From: Amoebophrya sp. A120
Lineage: Eukaryota > Protista > Dinoflagellata
Length of the DNA: 64,000 bases
Direction: 5' to 3'
Assembly: GCA_905178155.1 (NCBI GenBank)
Contig: CAJINV010000016.1
Coordinates: 248,001-312,000 of the forward strand
Position numbers and translations under genes: made by a program. The notes below the pieces were generated by a model. It did no database searches, was not told where the DNA came from, and saw only the letters and a list, made by a program, of their open reading frames with translations. Positions within the stretch are counted from its first letter, which is position 1. Each line of letters begins with the position of its first letter. Positions 5,657 to 61,700 of the stretch are shown in pieces.

Positions 5657-8600
5657 TTATGGAAACGCTTTCTCCTTACTTTCCTCCGCTCGCCGTGCCT
5701 GCTCCTTTTCGACCAACGCACGTAGTCTTGCGCGCTTCTCTTCGTCCGTCTCAATTCCGCCTTGCGAAGGAGCATTTGTTTCTCTACTTCCTGTTGATAA
5801 AATTTGAATTGGCGACATCATCTCGCTACCCCGTCGATCTCCATCACCGCTCGTTCCCGGAGTTGTCCTAAAACCAGAAGCAGCAACATGACGGGTTGTC
5901 ATACTCGGAGTAGACCCCTTGTAGTCCTTTCGCGCATGGGATCTCATCGTTTTCTGAAACGCGGTGATCAGTGTATTCTCCCTGCGCTTGTAGTGGTAGT
6001 ACTTCGACTTCGCTTCTAAGTAGGCGCGCAGAGCTTCCGGTAAAATTGCTTTTTTCCCCCCATCAATATCTCTCGCGGCTTTATTCGTCCCGTCCGAAGA
6101 GGAAGATACCACATACCTCGACATAGCATTGGCGTCTTGAAAAAGTTCCACGAACTGGAACTCCCATGAGTCCTCACTCGCCATCGCAGCGCGCACCCGG
6201 GCGTCGAAGTCCGACTCTTTTAGCCCAATATCGATGCGAACGTGCGACATCACGGCTGTTACCCAGTCGAAGAGGGAAAAGCCCGTTTCGATTTCGGTCC
6301 TTCTCCCGTCGTGTTGGACAGGAATCACGAGTTTCGGGCAACTTTCTTGCACCGTCTGCACCGCTTGCACCAAACGCGGAGCACGACCGTCAGGGCCTTC
6401 GGCGAGGGTGGTGTAGACGGGTTCTGCTACCTCCCGGTGTAGTTGCTCTCTGGCTTTGCCGCGCCTGCTCTTCTTCGGTTTTTTGTGTACCGCATCCTGT
6501 AGTTGCGACTCAGCCGCGCCGTCCGCTGGGGTCAGCAGTCGTCGGGCTGCTTCTGCTTCGTGCTGCTCTGGATTTTTTAAACGGGTCTCGATTTCCGTCT
6601 CTCTCAGCGCAAGGGCAGGCTCCTGCTTTCCCCTCGTAGTCCCCGGCGTGACAAAATCAATGCTGTAGTTGTCCTTGAACGCAAGAGGAGGTGCGGCGGG
6701 GGCTTCTATCCTGTGTAAAAGTATCGTACTCGTAGTAATCGCAGGCATGCATTACAAATCTCGATCCCAAGGCAAAACAGCATGACAAACTCCATTTCTC
6801 ATTCTAAGTAAATTTGTCATGCGATTTCTACTAGTACGATACTTTTGCAGTTCATAGCTTCCACTGTGCCACAACTTTGAAGACCAGGATACTTCCCCTT
6901 ACGCCCCGCAACTTCGTCCTGTGCGGCCGCCGCGTGTTGGAAGGCTTTCAGGAGGGTTTGTTTATCCAAATTAATGTTCTTCTCCAACTTTTTCCGAAGG
7001 CTTTCTACCGTGCGGAACGCTAACTCGTTTCGGGCTGGACTTGTTCCGGACAGTTGGACGTGGTTCTCCTTTAAGTTCTCTGAGATTTCATCACTAAAAA
7101 CAAGCAAACCGAGCAGCCAGTGGTATTCGGGCAGCCCCAGCCTGTCAAGGTACTCGCGCAACACATAGGACCGAGACGCGTCAAGACTCGCTTCGGCGGT
7201 CAGCGGTTTTGCGGCGCTCGCGACGCAGAAGGCACAAAAGTAGTGGTCGTGGAGATCGTGAGCTGCGCATGCCGCTTCATCTGCTCGAACACCGCTGGGA
7301 GGTCCTCTTTCCTGAGGCACAAACTGGACCACTTTCTTCCCGGTCGCGTCAAACGTGATGCGCTCGGGCGTTCCTCGAACAGGAGTTCTTGCGCCGGGCG
7401 GCGGGTAACTCCTACCGTCTGCGGCCCCGAACTGTTCCCCGGCAGCCGCCTCCTCGCGGAGCATCCCGTCCGCGCCTTCCAGCAGGTGCCGAGCTTCCCG
7501 TCCCCCGCCCGGATTGCTCCGTGCACCAGCGCCGGCAGTGGCTGCTGCTGTTCTCAAACTTTTCTCGTTGCAACAAAAGTAGGGTCGGCCGCAGGGGCAG
7601 GCGCTGCCAAGGGAGCTGCCGTAGTGGAATTTCCATTTGGATCCGGTCTCGGGGTCCGGCTGTTGCAATTTTTTACTACATGTGTACCGCTCCAAACCGC
7701 AGGCGCACAGGTCCGATCCGGTGGGCGTCTGGTTTAGCGCAAGCAGCGCGCTGCGCATACTCCGTTCCTCCGCAGCTCCACTCTGCTCTAGGAGTTTCAA
7801 CATTGCCAAAGCCTGTTGCTGTTCGTGTGCTACCCTCAGGTGATGCGCAGGAGCCGCAGCAGGGTCGCCGCTTGCAGGAGTTGTGAAAGAACGACCCCCG
7901 TGCGGAAGTTGAATCGTGGACGAAGGTCCAGCTGCGGGTACTAGTACAGAAGTCCGACTATTTTTATTCTGAATCATGACGTGGTGCAGCAAATGCCGCA
8001 GTGGGACAGAATAGCCAAAAACGCCACGTCCTCTCCCCGCCGCGGGTAGTTCTTGCTGCTGTTGTGCTGGTCCCGCTGAAGTAGATCCTGCTGGCGACAA
8101 AGCTTCGGCTGCTGTAGTTGACACCGGCAGCATGTCCGGGTGCCACTGGAAATTCAGCATTTCATCCTCATCCTCAACGCGGCCGGAAATAATTCTCCGC
8201 GAACCCTCGTAATATCCTCAGTAAAAACGTCCCCACCCCAGAGTTGTCATGCAAATCTGCATGCCAAAAAGGTTTCTCGTGCGGAGGCCCATGAGAAGCA
8301 TTTTCTAGGGGTGATTTGGAGTCTCTGATGCTCGAATCAGCACGATATGCTAGATCTGTGATGCTGTTGAGCTAGCTAAACAGGATCACACTATGGACCA
8401 AACCTGTCATGCGGAGCAACCAAATCTGGTTGATTTGTCTAGCACATTTCCCATCTTGACTCTGGTGTGGGGACGTTTTTACACAGGATACGTAATGCGC
8501 CATGTTCAGTCGCAAAGACTCCTCGTAGTAGTTTTGGAAGAGAAACGCCTGCTCCAGTAGATCTTCCGGGGGGCTGGAGGATCCACCGGAGGCAAAAAAA

Positions 8601-11600: not shown

Positions 11601-14600
11601 GTAGCAAATTGTTCCCCAAACACTGTAAAACGATCCGGAACCCGGTGACTCCTCATCAATTCCTCTACCGCCTCTGTGGACCATTCTTTTCCCCGCATGG
11701 TGCGCTGGTGCGGCGGCGGTGCAGTCCCTTCGTCTGCTTCGGAGACTGCTTCGTCGGCTTCGGAAAATGTTTCTGCTTCAGCTCCAGCACTTCTGGATAA
11801 AGGTAATGAAGCGGGAGTGGACGAGGGTCGTGGCCCCCGACGTCCACCTCTAGTAGTTCTAGTTTCGCTCGAGGTAGGCACGGCGGCAGCACTAGCACTG
11901 CTAACGTCGTCACCTCGGTCTCGTGCAACACTGTACCTCCCCACAACTTCTGGGTCCCGTACCTGCTCTACCCGGGGACGACTCAGAGAACCCCGAGGAG
12001 GGCTGCCTGGTAGTACTGCAGCCGTGTCTCGTCCGTGGAGTGCACACTCCTCCACGGAGATGGGGTCGTGTTGGTGTCCCTGTTGATAAAAAGAGCGCAC
12101 ATATTCACTTTCACCCTCATCTTCGCCGTCGCTGTCATCATCTGAATCCATCCAATCTGCCCAGGATGGCCTTGTCGACGGAATAGCCGCTAGCCCCAGA
12201 GCAAACGTTGGATTTTCGCCAGGCTCTATTTCGAAATGGTCTGACGCAGGAGCTTCAGGCTCGACTTGATGCCCGCCCACAGGAGCTGCTGATGCTGCAG
12301 GCGCAGCAGGAGCAGCAGCCGGGCCAACATAATCCCCCTTATGATGCACCGCACTGCTGGCCTCCGCCACGTCATCTAGTGTCTTCCAAAGTGCCGCACG
12401 ATTCCTCTTCGAAGAACTTCTTTTGTCGATCGAAGCCTCCGTCCGTCGTCCCCCTGCGCCACCCACAGGAGCGCTGGCGGTGCGCCTTTTGCTTTTAACG
12501 CGCAGCCGACTCTTTGATCGCCGGTCCTTCTCCCTCCCCGTGGTTCGCAGCGGCTGCGCCACAAGAGCTTTACCGCGGGTGGGAGACCTGCCGCGAGGTT
12601 GCGTTGTTCTCGTCTGTGGTCCTTGATGTGTGGATTTACGTCTTTGACCGCCAAGATGAACAGGTGGAGTCTCTACTTGCGGAGGAGCAGCAGGCGAGCT
12701 GCTCCTTCTTCTCCGCCGACTAGCGCGTCGCGGAGCTCCGCCGCCTTCTGAGGAGGCTGCGCGAGTAGCTTTACCGGTAGAAATCGATCTCGATTCCCTA
12801 CTTGTTGCCGATGATCGGTCTTCACCACTCCGGAAATAGCTTCGCGCGCCCTCCGAATTTCGATGCTGCGTCGCGGACGCGGTCGTGGCAGCTGCTGGTA
12901 GATCATTTTTTTCAACATCAGATGCCTCACTCGCACCATCTTCCATATCGCACGACGCTGTTGACCTCCGAAAGAATTTGCTGTCCCATTCCCCAAAGGG
13001 GCGAAACGTGGGCGGGATGCTGCTTGCCGCGACCCCAGTGGAGATTCCTCCGGAAGGATCCCACCCGTGCCTCGTCCGAGAATGCTCGGCCTGCCACTCC
13101 GGCCTCAGCGGCTGCGAAATTGGATAGTGCGGTAGATGTTGATGTTGAAGGGGCGCCTGCATAACTTCTCCAGTACTACTGGTAGCCATAGCATCGTCCC
13201 TACTTGTGTTGACCAACCACACAAACTGCCGCCATGGCATATAATCGGCCGCGTGGTCGGGACCAACTTCTGTTGGTCGGGAGCAACTGGCGCACGAACC
13301 CGCGGCCGAAAACGCTGGCGTGGTGGTGCCTGCAGGGGGCGCAGTAGGTGCAGCTCGCCCGGGACTGTATGGCACCTCTTCACCTGCTGCCCCTGCGGCG
13401 CTAGCAGCGGTCCTTCTTCGCAGCTTCAACTCCGTGTCATACCGCCCCGAAAACTCCTCCAGAACACTTTCTCGCACCTTCGTCATTTCCGCCGCCGCGC
13501 GCGGCCACAGTTTTTGTAACAACAGCCCCGTCTCCCACCTGGAAACCCGGGGAAGGAAAGTTCGCGCAAGTTGCTTCACCACTTTTGACCCACCAGTCTC
13601 GCCCCCGGCTCCCAGGGGCAGTACTTCTCCGCGCGGCGTCTGCATGGCTCCGTGAATAACGCCACTGACCGTGATGGAGTGGAGTAAAGCGGTTTTTTCT
13701 CGGGTGGTGCTCGCAAATAGCAATGGTTCCAGGACAAACGCGAAGAAGAGCTGCAGCAGGGCAGAAGTAGCGGCACTCTGCAAAATCGACTCACTCGACC
13801 ACCACGAGGGTGCGTGTGTGGCAGTCGGGGGCTGAGGAACTGTTTTGGGTCTGTGGCGATCGCGGAGAAATAGCAACATTTTTTGCACAACTTCTTCCCG
13901 GCCTGCTCGAGTCGTGTAGTCGCCCTCTAGAAGTCCACCTCCTCCCTCCACTCGCATTCCTGGCTGCGGCGTGGCTCCTGCTGCTGCGCTAGTTGAACAA
14001 GAACTTGTACCTGCGGGTGCAAGATATTTCTCGTAGAATCCGTGGATAAGGAGCAAAAGCTCAAAGGATTCTGGCGATGCTGTTCTTGCCACCATCAACC
14101 CAGAAGTAGTAGCCCTAGTCTGTGCAGCAATATTTGCCCTGCTGCGACGAGACGACGTAACTCTCTTTGGCTTTCTGTGTTCAAACAAGAACAACACTCC
14201 GTATTGGGAAAGCCACGTCCGCGCAGCGACGTACAGCTCTGCTAGGAGTCTGTGGTATCAAATGCAAAAATGTCTGGATCTGGAAGATTCCGGGATTTGT
14301 GATGCATATTTTGTGTGATCCATGACGCATGTAATGCATGGTCTAGCATCACAGATTTTTAGAGGGCTTCCTGATGCCTATTCCAATTCCGCATGAGAAA
14401 TGCCCTGTCCGCGTAACATAAACTGGAGTCCTGTTGTTGGTCATGCAATACAGATTTTTTCGGAATCCAAAGACAGCATGACAAGTTCTAATCTTCCAGA
14501 CCCAGACATTTTTGCATTTGATATGCGGCGGTTCGGAACGACGATATGCGGAGGAGCTACAGGAGTGGGAGTATCATGATGCGCAGTAGTACTAGCAGCT

Positions 14601-17243
14601 CTTTGTGTAGTACTAGCAGCGGCTGCACCTGCAGCATGCTCTTCGCTGTCGCCAGCATTCGACACGTTTGGAACAAAAGAAAGCGCTCCATCCTTCCAAG
14701 CAGGGTGCGTGAGGAAGAAATTCTCGAAGTTCTCGGCTGCAACAAATTTTGACTGGTCCGCCAGCTGCTGCTCCAGAACAGTTTCGCCTTGCACACGACC
14801 CTGCTGCGTCGAAGGAGCTAAGTCACCCCCTCTAGTACTTCTACTCCGCTCGATCGCATGCAGAGACAAAACTACTTCGTACTTCCTCAGTTGCCTGCTC
14901 CGCAACTTCGCGGGGACGAAATGCTTGGAGTAGCTATCCAGAAATGCACAGCCTTTGTGGTCCCGCAACTGCCCCAGTTTCTTCAGCATCCGCCGACGGA
15001 TGGAGGACTCGGTGGAGAGAGGGTCGACGACGGCTTTAGTGCCGATTATATCTTGCTTAAACACCGTGTAGATTAAGTGTGACACGTAGCTGTGCGCGGA
15101 TTTCCTGATCTTTTTTGGTCTCCTCAACATCCGGTCTCGATCTTCCATTTTTGGTGGCTGGCGTGTCAGAATTTCCTCCAAAGCGAAAACAAAGTCTCCG
15201 CTGTCAGTGTAGTAGCCAGTGACGGACCGTTTCAAAATTTCAGTAACCTTGGAGATTCGTCCAGATTCAGCAGCAGCAGCTCCCAGATTCAGCCAGGAGG
15301 GGAACGCTCCTGCCACCGGAGCGTGCTGTCGTTGCACCCGTTGGCGTTGCGATTGCGAAGCAGCAACACTATAATCTTCGTCTGCACCTCTTACAAGAAC
15401 CCCATTCTTGTCCACCGCAGCGCGCAAAGAGTCCAAAAACTTGAGAAACGATGCTTGCATGAGAAAGATCCGGGGGTCTAATTTCAGGTGGATCTTGTTC
15501 GTGTTTTCGTCCAGCTTGAGAGACTCCAAGATCGAGTCTGAGCGCTGCCGCCCCGCTTTTACCAAAACGGAGTGAAGTTTGTCCAACAGCTGGTAAATCC
15601 GGTGTTGTACGTGTCGAAGCTTCGACGCCGTGGTCCTCCCAGATGACTTTTTAGACCTTCGGGTGGAAATAAATACCTGCGCGGCCGCTCCCCGAACAGA
15701 CCGCCCCGCGCCGCCCCTTCGCATGTTCAGCATGTCGTTGGTGCTGGGCATCCGGGCGACAACGCTGGTGGCGTCAACACTAACACTTCTGGGAGCAGTA
15801 GAAGTCGAAGCACGCATGGCCTCGTACAACGCTGTCAGAACATCGGTCTTCTCTGTCTCGTGCTGCGCACCTCCAGGTCTACTTCCCACAGGACCACCTT
15901 GCGCCGCTCCATGATAACTGCTCGCTGCAGATGAAGATCCAACACCTGGTTGAAAACCCCCCGAGTAGAAGCTCTGCGCTGCTTCCCTTCCATCCGCGAC
16001 GACGTGGCTGAAAATTTCTTTATTCTCCAGATTCAGTTGCATGAAGATTTCGGAATCCATATCCTGAGTAAAAACGTCCCCACCCCATAGTCAAGATGGG
16101 GATTTTGCAACACAAACCTGGAAGTTTTGGGACTCATGCATCACAAGTTGCAGTCCGTAGTGTAGTGCAGGTTAGCAAGGGCAAACGCATCAAAAATCCA
16201 TCTGATTATCCTGGTTGCAGCATTACAAATGCCAAAACACGACTAGAAATTCCTCTCATGGAGATGCCCATTACAACTGTTCCTGTCATTGCAAATCTGC
16301 ATGACAACTCGGGGATGGGACGTTTTTACAAATGATAATCCAGGGCAGCCGAAACGGAAGTCGAGCTAGAAATCGTCATATTCTTCGGATCAGCCAAGTG
16401 CCCAAATTCCGCCTTGTGTTCGCGGAAGATATGGAAGCGTCAGGTTTGAAATCCTCAAAGTTGAAATAATCTGTAATGCATAAAATGCATGACCCGAGGT
16501 ATGTGTGTTGCAGAGCAGGCAAGTGAGGCCGATTGTAAGCCTGTTTGGGGTTACAGCTCGAGCTGCTAAAGTAACACGAGAAAATCACTCTTCTTTGCCT
16601 AAACAGCATGACAAACTGGATTTAGGGACCGCCGAAATTTGTCATGCCCCACTTGGAAACTGGGTTCCAACTGGCGTCCACTTTATGCATGACAAATTAT
16701 TTCAACTTTGTCGATTTCAACTACTCTGACACATCCATAGAAGAGCCAGGTGACGTAGAGCTCGATCAAGCCCTGCAGATCCTGGTCCGCCTGGGTTGGC
16801 AAAATCGCGGCTTCCACCTCGTCAACCGACCAGAGCGGAATCTTATTTCTCGGTGCATCTTGATCTTGCTGCTGGAGGTACTGTGCTGCTTCTACTTGTC
16901 GTGCTCCTGGTCCACCTTCACCGGGTTCGGACGAGGCCGGTGCTGGGGCACGACCACGCTGATCAACATGGGAAGACGCCTTTTTTTTTGATGTAAAACT
17001 ACCTCCCACACCAGCGGGCGGTCCCGTAGCGGGTAGGGGAACGCCGATCCGAGCCGCGGAGGCCGCAGCGGCGGCATACGTCGCTGGACGTCGGGGTGGA
17101 GACCTTCTTGCTGCTGCACTTGGAGATCGTGCAAAAGCTCCCGCACCTGCGGCCGCAGCCCCGAAGATGGGTACGTGGGGGAAGAAGGATGTCAGGAGCA
17201 AAACGGAAAATGTAAAGAGCAGCTGCACCATCACGCTGCACAT
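5657..17243 (-). CDS. Giant (~3,425 aa) low-complexity protein with a signal-peptide-like N-terminus; 6 exons split by 5 introners
   Basis: Removing 315, 283, 273, 283 and 155 nt (element plus one DR) joins ORFs 16683-17261, a short exon, 14441-16060, 8372-14197, 6817-8160 and 5657-6748 in frame. Junctions: TWLF|REHK, AALD|SEIF, NRR|RLLA, MAHY|EGSR, VEA|PAAP. Starts MCSVMVQLLFTFSVLLLTSFF. Confidence 0.85.
6707..6856. mobile_element. Introner family A (non-canonical intron)
   Basis: TIR tatNNNNtgyaaaagtatcgtact; DR gcttc/gcttc; removing 155 nt restores frame. Confidence 0.92.
8213..8490. mobile_element. Introner family C
   Basis: TIR tatcctNNgtaaaaacgtccccac; DR cgtaa/cgtaa; removing 283 nt restores frame. 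Confidence 0.92.
14256..14523. mobile_element. Introner family B
   Basis: TIR tatcaaatgcaaaaatgtctggRtctggaagatt; DR tgtgg/tgcgg; 273 nt, in frame. Confidence 0.92.
16060..16337. mobile_element. Introner family C (opposite orientation to 8213)
   Basis: TIR tatc..gtaaaaacgtccc; DR atcca/atcca; 283 nt, restores frame. Confidence 0.92.
16430..16739. mobile_element. Introner family D
   Basis: TIR tatgga..gtcag..ttgaaatc..caaagttgaaataat; DR gaaga/gaaga; 315 nt, in frame. Confidence 0.92.
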
Positions 17244-24147: not shown

Positions 24148-24726
24148 TTATAACTTGTGCCAAAATTCCTGGATTTGTTCGGCACTGTATTCGAGCGCCT
24201 GCAAAGCTGCTACCCGTCTCCGATCATCACTAGCAGACTGAGCACGCTCATCATGGACATCGACTACCCACGAGAAGGCAGAGTCGCCGCCGCTTTGAAA
24301 CTGGTCAAACGCTGCGCGAAGTTGAGCATGTTCAGGACCCGGCGCGCCCTCCTCTGATCCGCCCTTCTGTAAGCCGCTGCAGAAAGTTTTCTTGAGGAAT
24401 TTCGCCGCGTCTACAAGCACTCTCCGAAGCGCTTGCTTTTCGGCAGGCGCAGGCGAGTCGGTGATGGCGCTCCGTGCCATAGCAATGAAAGCGCGACGCT
24501 CCTTCGCCGCCGTCTCGCTAATCTTCTCCAGCACAGTTTGGGAGATTTTTTGTTCGACGAAGTTTAATACGTCGCGCGCCTGCCCATCCAATGTGCGGCG
24601 CACGACAATGAACGGGGCTACCCCTTGTTCTGTGGAGCTCCTGGAGGACACAGGCCCGCTGTCGGTTGTTAGCAATTCTTTTTTGGGCTGTCCAACTAAA
24701 ACTCCAGCTGCCGCGAACTTCTCCAA
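24148..24726 (-). CDS. Hypothetical helical protein, paralogous to the N-terminal part of 25726-29322
   Basis: LRRVLVDAAKFLK vs LRKVLVDAAHFLK; GDSAFSWVV vs GDSVYSRVV; VAALQALEYSA vs VEALQELEGSA. Start codon uncertain. Confidence 0.7.
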   Translation of the reverse strand: MEKFAAAGVLVGQPKKELLTTDSGPVSSRSSTEQGVAPFIVVRRTLDGQARDVLNFVEQKISQTVLEKISETAAKERRAFIAMARSAITDSPAPAEKQALRRVLVDAAKFLKKTFCSGLQKGGSEEGAPGPEHAQLRAAFDQFQSGGDSAFSWVVDVHDERAQSASDDRRRVAALQALEYSAEQIQEFWHKL

Positions 24727-25725
24727 CTTTGTATGCGCGGGAAACCGGGAAACGCTTCACCCCTGCGACCGACGAGACTGACAACACAGACTGACAGCCA
24801 ATCTCGACGGTGGGTTCACTGAGATGAGAAACGAACGCCGCGCATGGCCCCTGCGAGCCCGCCATGTCTGGGGCGGGGCTGCGCCGGCCGTCGGCGCGCA
24901 CCGCCGGCGCCCGCGCACCTTCCTGAAGCTGGCGCGCAATGGCGCCCCCCGCGCCCCCCTAATAGTTACGGGCCCGGGCGCGGGCCCCACGGGGCCCAAC
25001 TGGGCTCGTTGTTGTCCCATGGTTCGGGCCGCCCGTTGTCATCATTCCAAACCCAAAAAACCGCGGGCCCTTCGGGGGCACGCGCCTGTGAAGGCGGCTG
25101 CGCTTTCAGACACGCACGAAAGCCGAGGCCGTTGGCTATACCATGGCCCAGGCCCCCGCGTGCGCGTTGCGTGCAACGTCCTTCGCAGGTTGCCCGGGCT
25201 TTCTTCACTTTAGTCGCCGCGCGCGGCCCCCGCCGTCGAGCGATAGATAGGCCCGGGCGGCCCTCTATCCCAGGGCGGTCCGTCGATAGATAGTTCCGGC
25301 GGGCCATGGGCGTCGGGGGCGTGCATGGCCAATCTAGGGCCGGCCGCTGCCCCTTCCGTCTATCATTGATGGCTGGGCAAACAACGAAGGCCGCGGGCCT
25401 GCCAGAGCAGGCCGCGGCACGTCCTTTGTTTGCCATACACAAGCCGCGAAAATAAGAGTGACACAAGACAGGGGGGCGCGTTGTTCTCTTCTTGCTAGGC
25501 TTTCTGCCGTAAGGCGGCACCATAAGCGGTGCGCGGGCCCAACTGCCTTCCAAAATCCGGCACCAGTTTTTTTCTCATGCATTTTTTGAAAACCGGCGGG
25601 CGGCCAGCCGATCCGGCCGGGCGGCCATGTGCCAAAAAAGCCGCAAGCAGATCAAAAGAACAAGCCGCCCAGAAGCGTCCGGAGCCGAGTGCGTGGGGAA
25701 ATCGCGGGGCGGCGGCGCCACGGCA

Positions 25726-35722: not shown

Positions 35723-36000
35723 TTCTATTTTTGGGTTCTAAATCGTATTCTATTTTGGCTTCTAAATCGTGCTACTATTTTGCTTTCTATTTTTTGCGGG
35801 ATTCGCATGTTCGAGCGGCTGCTTTTCAACTTCTAAATTCGCGCTTTGGAGGATTTCCTTTGGAAATCTCCAGTGTCGCGAAAAATAGAAGTTGAGAAGA
35901 CAGCTGCCGAACACGCGAATCCCGCAGAAAAATAGAAAGCAAAACAGCGAGCACGTTTAGAAGTCCAAAATAGAATACGACTCAGAGCCCAAAAATCGAA
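35723..36000. repeat. ~280-nt imperfect palindrome (long hairpin) preceded by AT-rich short tandem repeats
   Basis: Arms such as tcgtattctattttgg/ccaaaatagaatacga, tgctttctatttt/aaaatagaaagca, gcgggattcgc/gcgaatcccgc and tcaacttcta/tagaagttga pair in nested order around the apex gatttcc-ttt-ggaaatc. Confidence 0.85.
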
Positions 36001-52000: not shown

Positions 52001-55000
52001 TCGGGTTCTTCTTGTTGCGGCGACGTATCGGTACCTAAGTAGGAGGTTGCAGCAGCAGCACCATCAGCAACAGTAGCACCAGTAGAACTACAGGCAGCAG
52101 CTCCACCTGCAGCGAAAAGTCCGCTCCCACCAGAGATCCCCGACGAGGAAGCGCTGGCACTAGTACCAGCAGTACTACTCCCAGTACTGCCCTGCCGGTG
52201 GAAGTTGGTCTTCTGCAACAGTAGCCACGTCTGAAATTCCTGGTCTACGTGGTTTTTCAGGTTGTTCCAAAGAGATTCGCGCTCCCGTGGCGTGAAGGAT
52301 ATCGTGCGAGGACCACGATGATTGTGACTTTGAAGATTTCCGTCGTTTTCATGAAACAGTGCCAGCAAAGTGTCGATTTTCCGAATGTTCTATCAACAGA
52401 AAAAAAACCAATCCACTTTTTGCATGACAAACATAGAACTTGGTACGTGCTTTGCATGACAAATTGCATGTGGATGGGTGCTTTTTCCTGGATATGCTCA
52501 TCGGATTTTCCAAGAAGCACTGTCGCGGGCAAAGTTCCTGGTGCGTGCGCCACTCGCGGAGGGTCCACGAACAGGCCGCCGGTTTGGCTTGTGCTTGCGC
52601 TTTCGAGGCTGGCGGAAAGAGCTCGGCGGAAGGGGAGGGTGCAGCAGCTGCGTTGGAACCTGATTTTTACTGCGATCATTGCGAGTAGGAACGTAAAAAC
52701 CACACTCTATGGATCAGACGCAGATATCATGCGGCGAAGCCCTCGTCGAGCGGAAATCAGACAACTCAACGCAGAAGCCTCGTGTATGTTCATCTTCTGC
52801 AAAGCAGCAGCAGCAAAAAACCATATTTCAGTACCTCCTGGTCGCGCCACAGAAGAAGAAGAAGAAGCAGAAGAGGCTTCGCCCTGCTGCGGTCCACCCC
52901 CGTCGAAAGCCACTCCGTCTTCCGGCAGTCCTAACTCGAGAACTTCCTCCAATTTCAGCCATGTCCTGAGCTCAAACAGGCTCGGGAAAACCTCGCTTTT
53001 CGACCCGGTGCGGCAAAAGGGACAGCCGGTCTTCAACCCCCTGCCGCGGTCCTCATGGCTCGCGGCGCAGACGTTACAGAGGAAGTGGCCACAGGGGTAA
53101 ATGGCAACCTTTGGGACATCAAGGTCCGACACATTATGCTCAGCAGACTTGCTGCGACGATCGTAGTAGTTTATCCAGGAAAAAACACCCATCCCCATCC
53201 AATTTGTCATGCAAAACATGTATAAATTCCTTTGTTTGTCATGCAAAAAATGGATGGGGATGGGTGTTTTTTCCTGGATATAGTTTTTGTCTTTACTAGA
53301 CAGCGCATCAGTATTTTTGGACGACGACGTAGCAGCTCCGGTAGGAGTGCGACCTCCGGTGTTCGCTGCGCGACCATCTGCGTCTCGCTGTTCCACTACA
53401 TCGTCGCCGGCACAGGACGACAAACAGATTTGGCACTCAGTTTTCGCTTCAGTATGCACAGGAAATTTCCCGCACACGTACAAAAACAAAGAAATGCGGT
53501 CCCCGCATGACAAAACTGGACTTCGAATCTAGTGTAGCATGCCTAGTGTTACACTTCGAATAAGTGAAATTTGTGATGCATTTTGTACATGTACGGGAAA
53601 TTTGTCTTGCATATTCAGCCAACACAGACTCCCCATTGTAATCCATCCATTTCAGGGCGAAAAACAGCCGCAGCTCGTGCGACCGGAGCGGCCGATGAGG
53701 TGTGGTGCGGATATGCACTGCAAAAGCATCGTACTTGTACTAATCGCATTTATGCATTACAAATTTTTCTGTCAACGTCAAGTTAAATCCGCATTACAAA
53801 TTTCATTTCTCATGCTGAGGGAATTTGTCATGCGATTTATACTAGTACGATTATACTTTTGCAGTGCATAGCGGATTTTTCTCAGCCATCTCCTACTTCC
53901 TCTGTTTGGTTCTTGTTTGATCGCTGGTGTCAACATCCTTGTTCCTTTGATGTTCTCTGTCGTGCGTGAAAACCGCCTTTTTGAGTCGGGCTTTCGTCGT
54001 GGTTTTTTCTTGTCTCGTCTTGTGCAACTGCCATCGTCAACGTCGGGAACAAATCCCTGCAGCTGACTCACCCGAGAGGTGGACGACGGTGCATTTGTTG
54101 TTCCCCTCAGCGAAAGAACCTTGCTCTTCATGCCATCGACGGCGGAAGCTGCAGACGAGCATGAGGCTGGACAACCGCGTTGTGTCTGGCCCTGCAAGAT
54201 GGACGACGTTCCGCCTGCGGCACTGTCCATTGTGAGCTGCGTCGGGGCCCGTGCGAGGGTAGAGGACGAGGAGGAACTGGCTGTAGTGGGCAGCCCGTTT
54301 GAGGTTGACATCCCGCCCGACGACCTTCGGGGAAGCACGAGCCCATGTTCTGCATGATCGCCCGCGTCCCGTGGTGCAGCAGCATGACTGGCACCAGCAG
54401 GTCCCGATGATCCCGTTGCACAGCTGCCTAAGAGAGGCTCGTCTGTTATGGATCTGTCAGGATTGAAATCGTCAAGGTTGAAATGATTGGTCATGCATAA
54501 AATGCATAACGCGAAATACGTGTGTTGCAGAGCAGGCAAGGGAGGCCGATTGTAAGCCTGTTTGGAGTTAGAGCTCGAGCTGCTAAAGTAGCATGAGAAG
54601 AGCAGTCATCTTTGCCTAAACAGCATGACAAACTGTATCTAGGTATCACCAAAATTTGTCATGCGCCACTTGCAAACTGGGTTCTAACTGGCATCCATTT
54701 TATGCATCACAAACTATTTCAACTTTGACGATTTCAATCCTGACGCTTCCATATCTGCGGCAGTTACAGTAGAGGACAACAGTGGAACCGCAGCCGACGA
54801 GCAGCTACTGACGATACCACCCTTTCTCGCATCATTGTCCCGGTGCGAAGTAGAAGTAGACCTTGTTCCCGTCGTTCCACTCAAGAAATCGATGGATCGC
54901 GCCCCTGCTTCGTCAGCACTTTCGGATGCTTTTGCTGTTGACCTGCGAGCGTTACTTCCGGGCGAGGAGGGAAGAAAAGATGATCGGGAAGGCAGGGGTA

Positions 55001-55304
55001 GCAGCACTCGAGCTCGGCTAGATGAAGATGAGGGTTCTAGCGTCGGCCCGTTGTCCTGGTCTTCGATATTCAGGTAGGAGGCGGAGGCTGCACTAAAAGG
55101 GGCAAAATTGAAATAAATGACGGGGCTTATTGCGAACAAGCTGTGGAGCAAAAAGAGCAGAAGCTTGCCAGCTCGGGTTCGTCGTGGTCGAGGATGTGAG
55201 GTAGAAGTTGAAGGGTGTTTACCTTTAGGCAGGCTGGAGGGGACGAGCATGACAAAACTGGAACGGGAAAACAAAACCGAAAAAGGAACGGGCAGGTGGG
55301 CCAT
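46044..55304 (-). CDS. ~2,390-aa putative membrane RING-finger (C3HC4-type) protein; 9 introners plus one inferred GT-AG intron
   Basis: Removing 312, 164, 166, 114, 175, 109, 162, 282, 267 and 328 nt gives one frame. CQIC...PCGHFLCNVC...CPFCR is a RING-HC pattern. Hydrophobic N-terminal segment (LLLFLLHSLFAISPVIYF) and Cys-rich hydrophobic segments near the C-terminus. Confidence 0.8.
46185..46507. mobile_element. Introner family D (opposite orientation to 16430 and 54447)
   Basis: TIR tatgggagtgtcagga.cgaaatcg.caaagttga; DR tggtc/cggtc; 328 nt, restores frame. Confidence 0.92.
47176..47437. mobile_element. Introner family B (opposite orientation to 14256 and 58399)
   Basis: TIR tat....tgyaaaaatgtctgggtctggaaga; DR gcgat/gcgat; 267 nt, in frame. 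Confidence 0.92.
50199..50475. mobile_element. Introner family C (left terminus TCT instead of TAT)
   Basis: tctcctatgcaaaaacgtcccc ... ggggacgtttttacatatgata; DR agccg/aaccg; 282 nt, in frame. Confidence 0.85.
51583..51739. mobile_element. Introner family A
   Basis: TIR tatgcattgca.aagtatcgtact; DR cagcg/cagcg; 162 nt, in frame. Confidence 0.92.
52391..52494. mobile_element. Introner family E (opposite orientation to 53172)
   Basis: tatcaacagaaaaaaaaccaatccac ... gtggatgggtgctttttcctggata; DR tgttc/tgctc; 109 nt, gives ENPMS|IRKID. Confidence 0.85.
52660..52834 (-). other. Probable canonical GT-AG intron (175 nt)
   Basis: AG|GTACTG ... AAAATCAG|GT. It removes the in-frame TAG at 52707-52709 and supplies the needed frame change (RPGG|SNAAAAP). 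Confidence 0.6.
53172..53280. mobile_element. Introner family E; 3n and stop-free, inside the RING loop
   Basis: Perfect TIR of about 30 bp tatccaggaaaaaacacccatccccatcca; DR tagtt/tagtt; 114 nt. Confidence 0.92.
53453..53613. mobile_element. Introner family G
   Basis: tatgcacaggaaatttcccgcacacgtacaaaa ... ttttgtacatgtacgggaaatttgtcttgcata; DR ttcag/ttcag; 166 nt, restores frame. Confidence 0.92.
53712..53870. mobile_element. Introner family A
   Basis: TIR tatgcactgcaaaag..tcgtact.gta; DR gcgga/gcgga; 164 nt, restores frame. Confidence 0.92.
54447..54753. mobile_element. Introner family D
   Basis: TIR tatgga...gtcaggattgaaatcgtcaa.gttgaaat; DR tctgt/tctgc; 312 nt, in frame. Confidence 0.92.
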
Positions 55305-55786
55305 ATCTTTCTCTTCCTTATTCAGGTGGCCCTGGCCTCGCAGATGATGATGGACGATTAGGATCACGAGATGAAAATAGAGGACACATCGTGAACAAAA
55401 ATGCCGCTACTTCGTGTGGTATACCAACTATCATCGCTGAAGAACCGGTAACCCAGCTGTTGCCGGCCGCTTTCGCTTAAACACTGGTTTACAAAACAGG
55501 GCTACGTCGTCCTTCGCTCTCCCGCCAAAACACGAGGACGAGAGCAATCGAAATAAAATCAAAACCCCTCGGAGCTGCGGCTGACTCCGTTCAAAGATCA
55601 TGGTCGCGGGGCCAGCGAGTATAGAAGGACGCCGCCTGGCCGGGTATTAAGAGCGTAAGCTTAATGATGTCTTTTGGTATCAACTGTATCTGAGCATGTT
55701 TCATCAGTTCTTCATATCGTGTGTCTCGCGTTCCGTCGGAAAGAATTTCCTTCTGTCTTGTTCAGTGCTTCTGCTTCGACCAATCG

Positions 55787-58700
55787 TCACATACTGACCA
55801 ACCCCGGTCCCCGCATTCGCTTCTCCTCCTCTTCCTCAAACACAACTTTACAATCGCCAAACTTGCGTCGCAAATTTGCTACCCGTAGCATAGAATCTCC
55901 GCACAGACGTCGTGATTCTTGCAAGTGCAATGAGAGAAGTGAACCGTCAGAATAGCCAGTTGCACCATCATCTTGCGGTTCTCCACTCTGCGAGGCAGGG
56001 TTTGGACGACCACCAGGAACAGCACCTCGTTTTGTATCCGGCAGTAGCACGACCTCCGTTCCATCGAAATCCCGGCAATACCGCAACTGTTCCTCTTCCG
56101 GAATGATGATCACGTGTTCAGGCACAGAGGGTGCAACTACAGATGCAGTGCCTGCTCTACTTGGTGACCACACGGCATCCTCTTCCGCTCCTCGCCCCAC
56201 AGGTCTCGTCTCATTCACAGGCCTGCCGTCGCTGGCGCTTGCTGCAATTTGTTTGTTCTTCCCAGACGACCTGGTCACCCGATCAGAAACTACATCAGCG
56301 CCGCCCAACATTCCCAATTTCTTATACCGCTGCTCTGCTTTTTTCTTCGAGCAGAATCTTATTCCGCTCCTGTTCATCTGTGTTCTTGATGAAGATGACT
56401 TATGTCCCCAATAATTTGGTGCAACTGCCCCGTCTTTGTGCTTCTCACTATCAATGCCACCCTCAGTGGCATCTGCTGGAGTAAAGTTATGTTGTCGAAG
56501 ATGCGCAGGAGCACTAGTACCCGTTGCGGTGTTGAATGAGCACTTAGCAACAATGCCGCTTGTTCTATGCATCCGGGCAAAGTTCCCAACTCCGCCATAC
56601 CGCTCGACTATCCTCCGTATTCGCGCCCGAACCAAATGCCTAATTGTGGTTGCTACCGGATCTGTGTTGCCATGAAGATCCTGCGAAGATGCGTTAGAAG
56701 TTCTCGCACTTAGCACCCTCCCGCTCACCGGATCTGCGAAAACCTCCCTCGACAAAAAGGACCCCTGACTCAGCAACGCGTGCCTGCGAGTCCGCAGCAT
56801 GCGTGCTTTCGCGGCAGCAGATGGGCCGGTGGAAAAAACCGCTTCCACGTCTTCCGCAGAGGCGATGACAGGGGCGGATTGGAGACTACTTGTCGTCAAG
56901 TTTGCAGTTGATTTACTGCCTGTGCCTGCTGTAGTTCCTGTTGCTGACATTAATACCCCTGCGCCGTTGGTCGTGGTCGTGTTCAGCCGCGCTTCCAACT
57001 TCTTGGCTTGGATTTCTCGGTCGGACTTCGCCTGTCTCCTCTATCCAAGAAAAAAACAAAAAGTGTGTACGTGTAACGGTATAGGAAAGGCAGCATCACA
57101 AATAATTCGCTTTGCATTTTTTACAGAAAAAAGCTGTCATGCATAGCTACGCGCATGAAAACACGTATGAAACGTGGCTATGACGCACTTCACGCATGAC
57201 AGGCGTAAAAACGGTATTTTTGCATTTTTTGCATCACAAACTTCCAATTTACACAGTTCTTTTGTCTTGGATATCTTCAGCTGTTCGATCAACGCTTTTC
57301 GGGATTGTACCATGTACTGGGAATTGTTTAATGGATTAGGATATCAAATGTAAAAATGTCTGGGTCTGGAAGAATTCATGTTTGTCATGCTTGTCCGGCA
57401 TGACTGTTAAATCTGTCATGCACGTTACCCAAGAGCTCCGCTTTTCTGTGATGCAGTAGTAGTAGTGACCATTTGACTCCTGGCGGGTTGGCGTTAGAAC
57501 AGATCTAGCCTCTGCCAATACCTGGGCGTTAGAACAGATGTAGCCTCTGCCAATACCCCTAGGTGGATACCCGATCCACTTCCTAACTGCAGAAGCGCAG
57601 TTTGTCATGCAGAATAGGCAACACCTAGGAGCTCAGAAACTTGTCATGCTGAGCCAGCATTTGTAGCCTCATCATGAGACGCCACCCAGCATCACAGGCT
57701 TCCAGACCCAGACATATTTGCATTTGATATAGGATTTGAAGATGAACTACCACTGTTAAAATCCGCACCAGATGAAGCAGCAAGACCTGCTCCTGTCGTC
57801 CCTTGTTCAACAGAAGATCCATCGTGAGATATTGTGAGGAAAAATCCCTCCTCCCCACATTGAAAACGCATCCGTCTGAAAATCTGTGATGCGGATTTGT
57901 GCCCACAAATCCTGTCTGTCTTGCACGCAGGCAAATCCAGAGGATCCGCCGCACTATGCAGGCGGTTTGTGATGCTGTTGGGCCTACACTATCGACGTTT
58001 TTCACGCTAGGAGCCTACGCCAAAACATCGCGGCTCAAGCTTGGCATATACCTGCAGTTTCCTCTACTGCAAGACAAATGTGATTTGTGTACTGAAATCC
58101 AGCATCAGAAACTTCTTTTTGATATGGGGTGGGGAGATTTTTCCTTTTGATATGAGAAAGCTCCCCCTCGTCCCCATCAAATTCCTTCCCCGAGAACGGG
58201 TTCGGGGAATCGCAATCGTGCGTCAGAAACGCCTCCAGTTTCTTCCCCAATAAGTCTTTCGTCTCTCGCCATTTCTCGATGCCAAAATGCGTCCGCAAGC
58301 AGCTCTGGATGTGGTTCTCTCGGAAGGGCGTGCCGGCTTCGTACTTGGTTGCCGCGAGAAATTTCACGTACTTCTTCACTTGGTTCTCCCGCTTCTCCTA
58401 TCAACTGTAAAAATGTCTGGGTCTGGAAGATTGCCGGGTTTGTCATGCACATTTTGCATGACTCCTCAAGTCTGTGATGCATGCCCTAGCATCACAGATT
58501 TTTAGAGGGCTTCCTGATGCCTATTCCGCATGACAAATGCTCTTTCCGTGTTGCAAAATTTGGACTCTCTGTGCTGCTCATGCAATACAGATTTTTTTAG
58601 AATCCAAAATCAGCATGACAAGTTGGATTCTTCCAGACCCAGACATTTTTACATTTGATATCTCCCGGTCCGAAGGGGTCAGGTCGGCGAGCTTTTGTTT

Positions 58701-61700
58701 CATGGAGACATTTATCCTGTGCAAAAGTATCGTACTCGTATAAATGCTGGTCTTGCATTACAAATTTCATTGTCAAGGCAAATCAGCATTACAAATTTTA
58801 TTTCTCATGCTGAGAAAATAATTTGTAATGCATTTATACGAGTACGATACTTTTGCAGTTCATAACATTGCTCGTCGGTGTACTACTAGGACCGTTGTCT
58901 TTGTCTCGCAGCTGCTGGTCCTTTCGCGCACCTCCACGACGTGTCTGGCGGTGGTTTTTCGCCGTTCTTGGCGATGGTACGTTACTGAAGATATCTTCAT
59001 TCTCGTGCTCTTCGCTGCTTTCACAATTTTCGGCAGAAATCGAAGGTTTTTCTGTGCCCGTTGCTGTCATCATCATCTGCTCGGTCGAATCATAATCCTT
59101 CGTCTCCGCCCGGGCGGCCAGAGACACGGCAGACAATTCCTCTGCCGCAGTTAATTTTTCAGTTTTTGCAGATCCACCTCCTCCGCTCATCAACAACTTC
59201 CTCGTCACATCCCCGCTCAAACTCGCGACCTTGACTTTCCTATGAAAGCCTCAGAATGGAAATCCTCAAAGTGGAAAAGGAAATAATTTGTGATGCATGA
59301 AATGCAAGGCAAAAAAGACTGTATTGCAAAGGACACATCAATGGAGGCCGACTATTGTCCTGCTAGGGGTGAAGAATTGGGCTGCTAATTAGCACGACAG
59401 AAGGGCACCCCTTTGCCTAACTAGCATAACAGACACGTTTTGAGTGCCCGGGAAATTTGTCATGCGCCGACTACAAATGACGCTTCAACTGGAGTCGTTT
59501 TTTTGCATTACAAATTACCAGCCATGCTCCGGCTACCGCCGGAGCGCAAGGCTGTTGGGCCGGGGCAAGACCGTGCGCCGATTGGACCACAACACCACGG
59601 GCCTGCGGACAACGCAACATGTTGGAGTCCTGCCGCCTGTTTGCGCCGCGCCAACCCGCAGGACCACTTGCGCGCCTCCCGCGCCTTTGGGCGCTCTGCG
59701 CAGGGAGCAGCTGCAAAGAACACCGTGGGCGAACAGAAGCCGCCCGGCGCGAGAGGGTAGCGCGAGAGGGTGGCGCGAGAGGGTGGCGCGAGGGGGTGCG
59801 CGAGAGGGTGGCACGGAAAGACGCCGAACAAAACAAGTCCGTAAGGGCCTGCAGTGCGAGATATGTGTAGCGTCATGCGGATGCGCGCCTATTTCTTTCT
59901 GTTTTTACCTCCTCGCAGACCTCTCGCAGACCCTCCTTTTGACCTCTTTTGGGGGTCCCTGCTAATAGTCCGGCTATACTCGCGGGTAGAGGTCGACCGA
60001 GGTGGCCGAGAGGTGGCCAAGAGGGTCCGCGGGAGGTCGCCCCTTATTCGCGCAACCTCTCGGCACCTCTGTCCACCTCTCGCCTGCCCTCTTTTCTACC
60101 TCTCGGCACCCTCCGAGGCGCTTAGCGGCCCTAAAGGGCGAGCGGTTCGGCGGGCTATACTCGCGCCACCTCTCGCGCACCCTCTCGAACTGCCTCCCGC
60201 GCCACCTCTCCACCTCTGTCGACCTCTTTTTGACCTCTTTTGACCTCTTTTTTACCTCCCGGCCACCTCTCGTCTACCCTCTCTAGACCAATATTTTCGC
60301 ATGAATATAATTTAGACCGGAAAAACGGCCGGAGTACATGTTTTGTCGCGCTTCGCCACTGTCTGGCATTGCTTTTGTTTCGCTTTGGGGGCTGCCCGGG
60401 GCCCGACTAAGATGCCCGGCCCAGGGACCGCGCCGCGCCAGGCGCCGGGCTGCGCGTTCTTTGTTGCCAAGGGTCCGGGATAGATTTCCCGGCCCGGATG
60501 TCGCCCACGGGGGGAAGGCAACGATAGTCCGCGGGGTCTTCCCTTTCCGGCTGCTATCGGCGCGGGGCCCCGCGACGGCATGGGGTGCGGCAGCCGCGCA
60601 TGCATTTGCGCGCCCCTGCGCCGAATATGGTCGCGGGGGCGCAGAAAAAGGAGCGCCCGGCTTCGGCACTTTCGGGGGCGAGGGCCCTCCCCCCGCGAGA
60701 GGGGGCCAAAATGGGGGCCCGAAGTTGGCCCAATTCGGGCCACTTCTTGGGGAGGGGGTAAAATGGGCTCAATCTGGGCCATTTTGCCCCCCCCCTGTAG
60801 CATCGGGGGAAGGCCATTTTTTGCCCCCCCCTAAAAAAGAGGCCGAATTGGCCCAACTTTTGCCTTCTTTTTACCCCCCCCCGGAGGGGGGGTGGTAGGT
60901 TGCCCCCAAGAGGGATTCTTCACGGCCCCTGCCTCAATCCCCCTGAAGAGGCCAGGCCCCCCAGGAAATCTCGCGGCCGGGCTGCTGGTTGCAGTTGTGC
61001 GGGCTCCGAGGTTGGCGCTCCACCACCATGCCGTGCCTGCCGCACGCCCCCGGTGCGAACCATGGCCGGGGGGGCCCAGCGAGGCGCGACCGCCTTGCCG
61101 CCCCTTCCCTCTTCCGGGCGGGCGCCGCCCGCCTGCGGTCATTGAAGCACATAGCAGCAGGCGGCTACCCGCCGGATGACTTGCCCCATCGCCCGGCCGC
61201 ACCATCGCGCCCCCCCTAGTCGCTATGCCCGCGACCCGCGTGCCAACTGGTTGCACGAAAAAACATGTACTTCGGCCGTTTTTCTGGTCTAAATAATAGA
61301 TAGTAATTTCCACTTTGAGGATTTCCAACCTGAGGCTTTCATATTTCCCCGGCCGGGTTTTCAGCGCTTTCTCGGCCACCCACCGGTTGTACCCGTTTCT
61401 TTCCAAGTACACTGCGAGGTCGGCGTTTTTGAAAAGGTTCAAAAAATCAGTACTGTCTATGTCGATATGAACCGCAGATCTCCCGTGTTTGTTCTGCTCC
61501 TCACAGTGTTTCGAAAACTGCTCTACCAGGGAGGCAACCTTCTCCCGATCTTCTTCCGTCACCGGTTGTTCTTCGAAGTCGTAGCGGATAAACGCTTGCA
61601 ACCGCTTCCCCAGAATCTGTTTGATTTCCGTGTGCTTGTGCAGTTTAAACTTTTTCCCCAGCTGCTGCTCGACCTCTCGGACGGTGGCGCGGGACCCGCC

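What the first reader, a model, noticed from the sequence alone, without database searches (positions are those of the whole stretch)
6707..61343. Scarless 'transposon-introns': TAT...ATA TIR elements with arbitrary 5-nt direct repeats that must be removed without GT-AG
Seen: 26 elements of at least 8 TIR families. For all 23 in coding regions, deleting the element plus exactly 5 nt gives a continuous frame, and 10 of those lengths are not multiples of 3. The DRs share no consensus (gcttc, cgtaa, atcca, gaaga, gtggc, gcgat, cagcg, tagtt, ttcag, gcgga, tagga, tgaga, tctcc, acatt, tttcc...), so no fixed splice dinucleotide exists; e.g. the 6707 junction offers no GT-AG or GC-AG placement. Known: Amoebophrya genomes carry IR+DR non-canonical introners, so the class is described, but to my knowledge its removal machinery is unresolved. 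Inference: removal regenerates the pre-insertion sequence, either by RNA splicing guided by the TIR stem and DR, or by DNA excision like ciliate IES elimination.
Basis: partly seen in the sequence, partly recalled or inferred. Interest (0 to 1): 0.9.

Follow-up and report, generated by a model that had tools for sequence, protein, structure and literature searches.

The report
Hairpin-ruler splicing of Amoebophrya transposon introns
In the marine parasite Amoebophrya, already-published transposon-like introns without normal splice signals are missing from messenger RNA, and all 17 junctions that could be checked fit one cut, one base before and four bases after the predicted hairpin, even where no flanking repeat exists, which likely means a machine measures from the hairpin ends.

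Summary
Confirmed: 26 TAT...ATA inverted-repeat elements, 23 in reading frames, none with a GT-AG or GC-AG placement. The window is Amoebophrya A120 (a public A120 protein maps onto it), whose non-canonical introners are published (Farhat 2021), so the class is known; this scan also noted similar introns on other DNA. Removal is at the RNA level: mRNA-type contigs skip element+5 nt at 10 of 11 elements as listed joints and also skip a canonical intron, while a genomic-type run keeps both. New here is the cut: one offset, 1 nt upstream of TAT and 4 nt downstream of ATA, fits 10 of 10 RNA joints and 7 of 7 non-canonical introns of the transcript-based A120 gene model. So the repeat does not guide the cut; removal is scarless because 1+4 equals the 5-nt target duplication. 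The paper called the cut position variable or unknown. The machinery is untested: hairpin-measuring nuclease plus ligase (about 0.5) or an altered spliceosome (about 0.4). DNA excision is unlikely. All checked genes lie on one strand.

The parts
6707..6856 (-). TIR element, perfect 5-nt repeat, in the 3431-codon frame
   Evidence: no RNA laid
8213..8490 (-). TIR element, perfect repeat
   Evidence: no RNA laid
14256..14523 (-). TIR element, repeat mismatched at transcript position 3
   Evidence: no RNA laid
16060..16337 (-). TIR element, perfect repeat
   Evidence: no RNA laid
16430..16739 (-). TIR element, perfect repeat
   Evidence: no RNA laid
24728..26185 (-).
   Evidence: one of 3 allowed placements
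31580..33448 (-). 1869-nt non-canonical intron, N-TAG...ATA-NNNN, weak end pairing
   Evidence: one of 6 allowed placements
34779..37116 (-). 2338-nt non-canonical intron, N-TAC...ATA-NNNN, no 5-nt repeat
   Evidence: one of 2 allowed placements
38781..39132 (-). TIR element whose flanks match at 1 of 5; removed as element+5 in model P0121
39618..39852 (-). TIR element in a tandem duplication; its 3' end closes a 1107-nt intron in the model
40485..40719 (-). TIR element, repeat mismatched at position 2; its 5' end opens the 1107-nt intron in the model
40942..41182 (-). TIR element inside a canonical intron (40865-41622) of the model
45273..45598 (-). TIR element, skipped +5 in 4 of 4 RNA-type runs; no long frame here
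45656..45960 (-). TIR element, mismatch at position 1, upstream letter kept; 4 of 4 runs; no long frame here
46185..46507 (-). TIR element, mismatch at position 5, downstream letter kept: bounds the cut on one side; 4 of 4 runs
47176..47437 (-). TIR element, skipped +5 in 4 of 4 runs
50199..50475 (-). TIR element with a changed 3' triplet; mismatch at position 4, upstream letter kept: bounds the cut on the other side; 2 of 4 runs
51583..51739 (-). TIR element, skipped +5 in 2 of 4 runs
52391..52494 (-). TIR element, mismatch at position 3, upstream letter kept; 1 of 4 runs
52660..52834 (-). 175-nt canonical GT-AG intron; control showing that the skipping contigs are spliced RNA
   Evidence: 387 genomic vs 212 contig letters in X3 record 3
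53172..53280 (-). TIR element, skipped +5 in 1 of 4 runs
53453..53613 (-). TIR element, skipped +5 in 1 of 4 runs
53712..53870 (-). TIR element; no listed joint, but a 14-nt loose end equals the far flank, which implies +5
   Evidence: table 7, read
54447..54753 (-). TIR element, mismatch at position 1, upstream letter kept; 2 of 4 runs
57042..57273 (-). TIR element, mismatch at position 3; one of five removed in sum
   Evidence: 446 letters left of 1828
57342..57729 (-). TIR element; one of five removed in sum
57830..58152 (-). TIR element; one of five removed in sum
58399..58660 (-). TIR element; one of five removed in sum
58713..58864 (-). TIR element; one of five removed in sum
   Evidence: (X4 record 19)
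24151..43270 (-). Host gene of public protein P0121 (Amoebophrya sp. A120, 2085 aa): 11 exact-match exons, 3 canonical and 7 non-canonical introns
46044..55406 (-). Host frame of 2427 codons with a RING finger, 9 TIR elements and one canonical intron

Best explanation
These are the transposon-like non-canonical introns of Amoebophrya A120; they are missing from mRNA-type contigs, every checked junction fits a cut 1 nt upstream of the 5' TA(T) and 4 nt downstream of the 3' ATA, and the cut is likely made by a machine that measures from the ends of the predicted hairpin, more likely a nuclease plus RNA ligase than the spliceosome. Step 1 (inferred, about 0.9): a transposase or integrase inserts the element and duplicates 5 bases of any target. 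Step 2 (predicted by folding): in pre-mRNA the inverted repeats pair and bring the ends together. Step 3 (shown for 16 elements at element+5, and bounded to one offset by 17 junctions if the offset is fixed; about 0.85): the RNA loses N-TAT...ATA-NNNN. Because 1+4 equals the 5-nt duplication, any insertion is silent whatever its target; the direct repeat is a by-product and is not read. Step 4 (inferred, about 0.5): a staggered cut that leaves a net 3-nt 3' overhang, then exon ligation, outside the spliceosome, as proposed for euglenozoan non-conventional introns.
For: RNA-type runs X3-X6 (one sample) give 10 joints, all element+5; the only offset common to all is -1. One X3 contig skips three elements and a 175-nt GT-AG intron. 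Genomic-type run X1 keeps elements and that intron on junction-bridging contigs at flat depth 22-33. Five more elements are removed in sum, 446 = 446. Model P0121, from a transcript-based pipeline (PMC7789003 section 25), has 7 non-canonical introns, all 7 compatible with offset -1, 2 of them with that placement alone; offset 0 fits 4 of 7. Four not preselected all have TA at +2/+3 and ATA at -7..-5 in one placement, chance per intron under 0.001. Six of 7 have 1-3 of 5 matching flank letters. All 9 predominant non-canonical end pairs listed for A120 have T second and any first letter (Table S4). Against spliceosome chemistry: in 176 oriented elements no excess of G at +1 (59), A at -2 (48) or G at -1 (65) over flank background, 55 different end combinations, no +1/-1 coupling (p 0.61, 152 elements), and the 5' end prefers C to G at +5 (46 vs 21 discordant, p 0.003). 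Euglena's spacers are 3 and 5-6 nt, a net overhang of 2-3 (PMC12501133).
Against: No enzyme, intermediate or excised RNA was seen. The RNA bound on the offset rests on two junctions (46185 in 4 runs, 50199 in 2 runs, one sample); the gene model is not raw reads and may share data with those runs. All 17 junctions are in minus-strand genes. For the spliceosome: U at +2 is invariant at 5' ends (176 of 176) but not at 3' ends (171 of 176; 5:0, p 0.06); N-TA resembles a GTA donor; stem positions +5 to +8 are often unpaired (39-76% complementary); A120 has nearly all spliceosomal proteins. The terminal pairs are predicted open in several elements that are still removed exactly (45656, 50199), and the ends of 31580-33448 pair no better than controls, so sequence as well as pairing may be read. 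The T-second pattern of Table S4 may partly reflect aligner preference for donor-like sites (recalled). The paper reports cut sites as variable relative to the hairpin.
Confidence: 0.5

Rival explanations
1. Same introns and same 1/4 geometry, but cut by an altered U2/U5/U6 spliceosome that reads N-UA as donor, has lost the AG requirement, and sets the 3' cut at a fixed distance from the AUA, whose A might serve as branch point.
For: +2 U in 176 of 176 5' ends; TA at +2/+3 and 3' ATA kept in long introns where +4 has changed; A25 ends are TT-NN with TTA-purine-purine repeats; spliceosome nearly complete, U1 RNA not found but U1 proteins listed; a target NNAGG gives a canonical GT-AG intron in this geometry (7 of 152); precedent in Fritillaria (PMC13326754 abstract; PMC11282704 section 6, which reads Amoebophrya this way).
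Against: No preference at +1, -1 or -2 and no +1/-1 coupling; C favoured over G at +5; canonical end pairs no more frequent than background suggests; the donor would lie inside a stem. That known spliceosomal introns keep A at -2 is recalled.
Confidence: 0.38
2. The hairpin or the shared internal motif is a ribozyme that splices itself.
For: Stable predicted stems; a motif GCATNACA or its complement in 149 of 152 oriented elements.
Against: No Rfam family at gathering score in the window; elements as short as 104 nt; no such motif in four of the five long introns and one copy in the fifth.
Confidence: 0.04
3. The direct repeats align the two exon ends and set the cut, so removal always restores the pre-insertion sequence.
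For: 245 of 338 elements in related loci have a perfect 5-nt repeat; repeat mismatches are rarer next to the cut (14, 10, 6, 3, 4 by position).
Against: That gradient is not significant for single mismatches (13 vs 6, p 0.17); mismatches at positions 1, 3, 4 and 5 are spliced through; six model introns without a repeat fit the same offset and two leave scars.
Confidence: 0.04
4. The elements are cut out of the DNA during the life cycle, like ciliate IESs, and mRNA is made from the cleaned template.
For: TIR plus target-duplication anatomy; X1's joint table was cut to 15 rows and contigs drop rare variants, so rare empty sites are not excluded.
Against: X1 contigs run unbroken from element through exon into the next element; RNA-type contigs and raw RNA reads of X9 hold element ends joined to other flanks; the 1/4 cut is not two-fold symmetric; element orientation is biased by predicted transcript direction on both strands (17:7 and 26:12); the published introns rest on RNA-seq mapped to the genome.
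Confidence: 0.03

Closest known systems
Introner elements among the non-canonical introns of Amoebophrya A120 (Farhat et al. 2021, PMC7789003)
   Same: Same organism, same TAT + 7 variable + A-run repeat, 5-nt direct repeats, RNA-supported removal, many families.
   Different: The paper leaves the cut position variable or unknown (Fig. 3 legend) and treats the direct repeat as part of the definition. Here one offset fits 17 of 17 junctions, and repeat-less introns of 0.6-2.3 kb follow it; four of them exceed the paper's 40-1000 nt analysis window.
Euglenid non-conventional introns (PMC12501133; PMC11282704 section 6)
   Same: No GT-AG, paired ends, fixed spacers between stem and cut, net 3' overhang of 2-3 nt, proposed MITE origin, unknown machinery.
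   Different: Signature CDG/CHG with spacers 3 and 5-6 there; TA(T)/ATA with 1 and 4 here. No clear purine preference at exon +1 here (108 of 176, p 0.15). Circular excised RNA is reported there and untested here. Distant lineages.
Fritillaria borealis non-canonical introns (PMC13326754 abstract; PMC11282704 section 6)
   Same: Transposon-derived, TIR and TSD, most introns break GT-AG.
   Different: They keep a few fixed end pairs (AG-AC, AG-AT) and are handled by an altered U2 spliceosome; here 55 end combinations occur in 176 elements.
Hemistasiid diplonemid non-canonical introns (PMC12621601, passages)
   Same: Base-paired ends, no conserved dinucleotides; RNase III- or tRNA-splicing-like removal is proposed there.
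   Different: Short G/C-rich ends; no cut rule is given in the passages seen.
Micromonas- and Polarella-type introners (PMC11282704, PMC12130899 passages)
   Same: MITE-like elements that become introns on insertion.
   Different: They borrow GT/GC or AG from element or target duplication; these need neither.

Membership tests
Amoebophrya A120 introner elements | Host is Amoebophrya A120 | tested here: met
   P0121, named A120 by its source, maps in 11 exact-match segments to 24151-43270
Amoebophrya A120 introner elements | Inverted repeat beginning TAT, seven variable letters, then an A run | tested here: met
   Position counts; definition
Amoebophrya A120 introner elements | 3-5 nt direct repeat at the boundaries | tested here: met
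   25 of 26 elements match at 4 or 5 of 5; the five long introns do not
Amoebophrya A120 introner elements | Removed from RNA with non-GT-AG ends | tested here: met
   10 joints, none with a GT-AG or GC-AG placement
Amoebophrya A120 introner elements | Repeated families | tested here: met
   10 clusters in the window; 24 of the 27 listed elements have matches in related loci, none listed for 26650, 38781 and 45273
MITE (non-autonomous TIR transposon) | TIR, fixed-length target duplication, short, non-coding, multi-copy | tested here: met
   245 of 338 perfect 5-nt repeats; at most 5 for lengths 3, 4 and 6-10
MITE (non-autonomous TIR transposon) | Autonomous partner encoding a transposase with the same ends | tested here: inconclusive
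   No transposase family in 14 window frames or 109 of 158 locus frames; three long TIR pairs with at most 151 open codons; no whole genome held
U2 spliceosomal intron | GT/GC...AG ends | tested here: not met
   0 of 27 in the window; 13 of 152 in loci under any placement
U2 spliceosomal intron | Branch point and lariat intermediate | not testable with these tools
   Only assembled contigs cover the locus
U12 spliceosomal intron | AT-AC ends and a minor spliceosome | tested here: not met
   AT-AC placement in 2 of 27; minor snRNAs reported absent
Euglenid non-conventional intron | Paired ends at fixed spacing from the cuts | tested here: met
   spacing 1 and 4 instead of 3 and 5-6
Euglenid non-conventional intron | CDG at +4..+6 and CHG before the 3' spacer | tested here: not met
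   +4 is T in 172 of 176
Euglenid non-conventional intron | Excised as full-length circular RNA | not testable with these tools
   No back-joint among the 10 joints, which is uninformative for such contigs
Ciliate IES | Absent from the expressed genome's DNA | tested here: not met
   X1 contigs bridge element-exon junctions; rare empty sites not excluded
Group I/II self-splicing intron | Conserved catalytic core | tested here: not met
   0 Rfam matches at gathering score

The most novel reading that the evidence does not exclude
Amoebophrya A120 runs a second, non-spliceosomal nuclear mRNA splicing pathway for most of its introns: a nuclease measures from a UA(U)/AUA-closed hairpin, cuts 1 nt before and 4 nt after it with no regard to exon sequence, and a ligase joins the exons. 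The stagger matches the transposon's 5-nt target duplication, which makes every insertion silent, and it converges on the geometry of Euglena's non-conventional introns.
Probability: 0.45. Interest if true: 0.88.

Novelty: already known. Interest (0 to 1): 0.64.

Why it matters
More than 60% of A120 introns are non-canonical and their removal is an open question (PMC7789003). A single cut rule turns hundreds of apparent splice-site pairs into one code (N-TA...ATA-NNNN), explains how tens of thousands of insertions could be tolerated in exons, corrects gene models where the repeat is missing, and gives exact ends for experiments that separate a lariat pathway from cut-and-ligate. If the machinery is not the spliceosome, it would be an exon-sequence-independent way to remove any hairpin-bounded insert from mRNA.

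Tried and rejected
No whole genome is held. The TIR pattern found nothing in viral contigs. Two host frames found no relatives in the word-indexed protein search. Raw RNA run X9 does not cover the exons and matched only TIR pieces, so it says nothing on these junctions. The frame test cannot fix the removed length beyond modulo 3. A stop-codon test of the offset on 24 mismatched elements in loci was uninformative (one stop each at offsets 0, -1, -2, -4; two of the three elements involved have doubtful ends). The mismatch gradient along the repeat is not significant for single mismatches. My idea that N-TATG is a GTATG-like donor is only partly supported: G at +5 is disfavoured and not linked to G at +1. 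The internal GCATNACA motif (79 in 6508 element bases vs 6 in 57492 outside) was considered as branch point or splice enhancer and set aside: it is symmetric in orientation and absent from four of the five long introns; a subterminal transposase site is my guess. I first took 26650-27847 for an unrelated 9-nt-repeat transposon; the gene model shows that it is cut by the same rule. No autonomous element was found. The protein atlas gave no answer.

Full report
Observation. A scan of the window for TAT...ATA ends with at least 14 of 20 complementary letters gave 64 pairs, 23 of them with a five-base direct repeat matching at 4 or 5 letters; 30 block-wise shuffles gave 4 such pairs in all, none perfect. 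They form 10 similarity clusters. 23 lie in long minus-strand frames, and 10 of the 22 with a repeat have element+5 lengths not divisible by 3. None of 27 elements examined has a GT-AG or GC-AG placement. The frame test only fixes the extra length modulo 3.

Organism and prior work. A search with the frame at 37101-38774 returned one protein, P0121, which its source names as an Amoebophrya sp. A120 gene model and which maps in 11 exact-match segments to 24151-43270. Farhat et al. 2021 (PMC7789003; I read the abstract, sections 10, 11, 12, 16, 25 and 32, and parts 2 and 3 of 5 of the supplement plus keyword passages; figures are not held) describe these elements: repeats beginning TAT, seven variable letters and an A run, with 3-5 nt direct repeats. 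[quoted passage not shown] The class is therefore known in this very genome. Figures 3, 4 and S19-S23, which I could not see, may hold more on the cut position than their legends do.

RNA or DNA. Four runs of one sample, X3-X6, laid on 45100-55500 at 98% likeness, gave 10 joints for the 11 elements there, each skipping element+5; the eleventh shows as a 14-letter loose end equal to the far flank (read). These runs are not on record as RNA, but one X3 contig that skips three elements is also 175 letters short exactly where a 175-nt GT-AG intron lies, so they are spliced RNA. Another contig keeps 446 letters across 57037-58864, which is 1828 minus five elements at +5 each. Run X1, not on record as DNA, has flat depth and contigs that hold both the elements and the canonical intron. 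Its joint table was cut to 15 rows and contigs drop rare variants, so rare empty sites are not excluded. Nine elements (6707-16739 and 38781-41182) had no reads laid, and 59241 only on one side. Two removed elements, 45273 and 45656, lie outside any long frame, so exact removal is not only what selection on a frame lets through.

Where the cut lies. In transcript orientation, mismatches at repeat positions 1, 1, 3 and 4 keep the upstream letter and the mismatch at position 5 keeps the downstream letter; 57042 (position 3) agrees if the piece end is the leftmost placement. The only offset shared by all 10 joints is -1: the intron is N-TAT...ATA-NNNN. X1 contigs confirm the genomic letters at 46508 and at both copies of the 50199 repeat. 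On RNA alone this rests on two junctions. A second line comes from P0121, built by a transcript-based pipeline: it has 3 canonical and 7 non-canonical introns, all 7 allow offset -1, two allow nothing else (26646-27848, 33867-34473), and offset 0 fits 4 of 7. The model may share data with the runs, and it is not raw reads. In the paper's Table S4 all 9 predominant non-canonical end pairs of A120 have T second and any first letter, as this rule predicts, though aligner preference could add to that (recalled). All 17 junctions are in minus-strand genes.

The direct repeat is not the guide. Six of the seven model introns match at only 1-3 of 5 flank letters. Two of them, 26646-27848 and 24728-26185, sit between offset 8-9 letter repeats and leave 9 extra letters in frame. 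Removal is thus scarless only when the duplication is 5 nt, because the cut takes 1+4 letters beyond the element.

More copies. A 22-letter TIR pattern fetched 139 loci from metagenome contigs, none at window sites. An RNA polymerase II subunit in one of them is closest to an Amoebophrya AT5.2 protein at 74%. They hold 338 distinct elements, 245 with a perfect 5-nt repeat and at most 5 at lengths 3, 4 and 6-10. In a strict set of 64 oriented by a codon model, 46 of the 50 with a 4/5 or 5/5 repeat keep the frame at +5. A looser set of 152 of the 338 (at least 3 of 5 matching, inside a predicted frame; the rest dropped) was pooled with 24 window elements. T at +2 is invariant at 5' ends (176 of 176) and not quite at 3' ends (171 of 176; p 0.06). 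There is no excess of G at +1, A at -2 or G at -1, and 55 end combinations occur. Elements with one TATC and one TATG end put TATC at the 5' side 46 times against 21 (p 0.003, on both strands); copies are related, so this p is optimistic. Folding predicts end-to-end stems in all 25 elements folded, with terminal pairs open in several that are still removed exactly; 6 of 7 model introns pair their ends from +2 to -5 in the predicted duplex, 5 of them better than nearly all controls, and 31580-33448 does not.

Mechanism. Insertion by a transposase with a 5-nt staggered cut is inferred from anatomy; no autonomous element was found, though an A120 TIR family with integrase-like frames is reported (PMC12130899, passages). 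Removal from pre-mRNA at a fixed distance from the TA(T) and ATA ends is the best-supported step (about 0.85). The enzyme is untested. I put a nuclease plus ligase slightly ahead (about 0.5), because neither cut shows any base preference and the released hairpin would carry a net 3-nt 3' overhang, close to the 2-3 of Euglena's non-conventional introns (PMC12501133, abstract and sections 8 and 12), which are reported to leave as circles (PMC11282704, passages and section 6) and for whose diplonemid counterparts RNase III- or tRNA-splicing-like routes are proposed (PMC12621601, passages). An altered spliceosome is close behind (about 0.4): N-TA looks like a donor, A120 keeps nearly all spliceosomal proteins, and Fritillaria is a precedent (PMC13326754, abstract). 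A strain with canonical introns has U1 RNA (PMC12005148, passages). DNA excision, repeat guidance and self-splicing (no Rfam match) are each under 0.05.

Novelty. The elements are already known. I found no statement of the fixed 1/4 cut or of the repeat being dispensable in seven searches of the held library or in the passages of a 2024 review (PMC11453091); subscription journals are not held. Earlier notes of this scan report similar hairpin introns on other DNA (not checked here); look-ups by place, by sequence and by the cut rule found nothing. Interest 0.64: a known class, with a new, exact and testable rule on an open question.

Noticed in passing
window 59517-61305: GC-rich insert of about 1.8 kb nested in the 59241 element, with its own TAT...ATA inverted repeat (60306-61298, 46 nt); part of it matches L013 (664 nt, 79%). 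Possibly an intron within an intron.
   Followed up: partly
window 39138-40798: Tandem duplication (797 nt, 95%) that copied an element with its exon. Model P0121 joins the 5' end of one copy to the 3' end of the other and skips the exon between: either re-pairing of near-identical TIRs (exon skipping) or a collapsed transcript.
   Followed up: partly
window elements and loci L001-L139: Motif GCATNACA or its complement in 149 of 152 oriented elements across unrelated TIR families, mostly 30-50 nt inside the ends; about 100-fold enriched in window elements. Role unknown.
   Followed up: partly
oriented elements in loci: Elements with unlike ends lie more often with TATC at the transcript 5' side than TATG (46 vs 21). 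Unexplained.
   Followed up: partly
window 24000-37200: GC-rich stretch made largely of long non-canonical and canonical introns of one gene; three of the long introns end in the same seven letters, and inner inverted and tandem repeats are common (26650-27847, 35260-36463).
   Followed up: partly
window 2552-3795 and 43051-44307: Duplicated segment (82%) covering the start of the P0121 gene and a paralogous start.
   Followed up: no
window 18700-23400: AT-rich array of degenerate units of about 1.1 kb (64-72% alike), without long frames.
   Followed up: no
window 1479-2100: GC-rich segment bounded by a 58-nt imperfect inverted repeat built of short repeated units.
   Followed up: no
L055, L010, L027: The same elements lie in or beside conserved genes: RNA polymerase II largest subunit, a SNF2 helicase and KIN17.
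   Followed up: partly
run X9 on window 58612-58662 and 59241-59277: Raw RNA reads under the same species label miss the exons but carry these TIRs at 90-95% joined to other flanks: the families seem to exist in another strain and occur unspliced in an RNA library.
   Followed up: no
window 52710-53525: C3HC4 RING finger in the 2427-codon host gene; the other 13 window frames scanned have no Pfam match.
   Followed up: no
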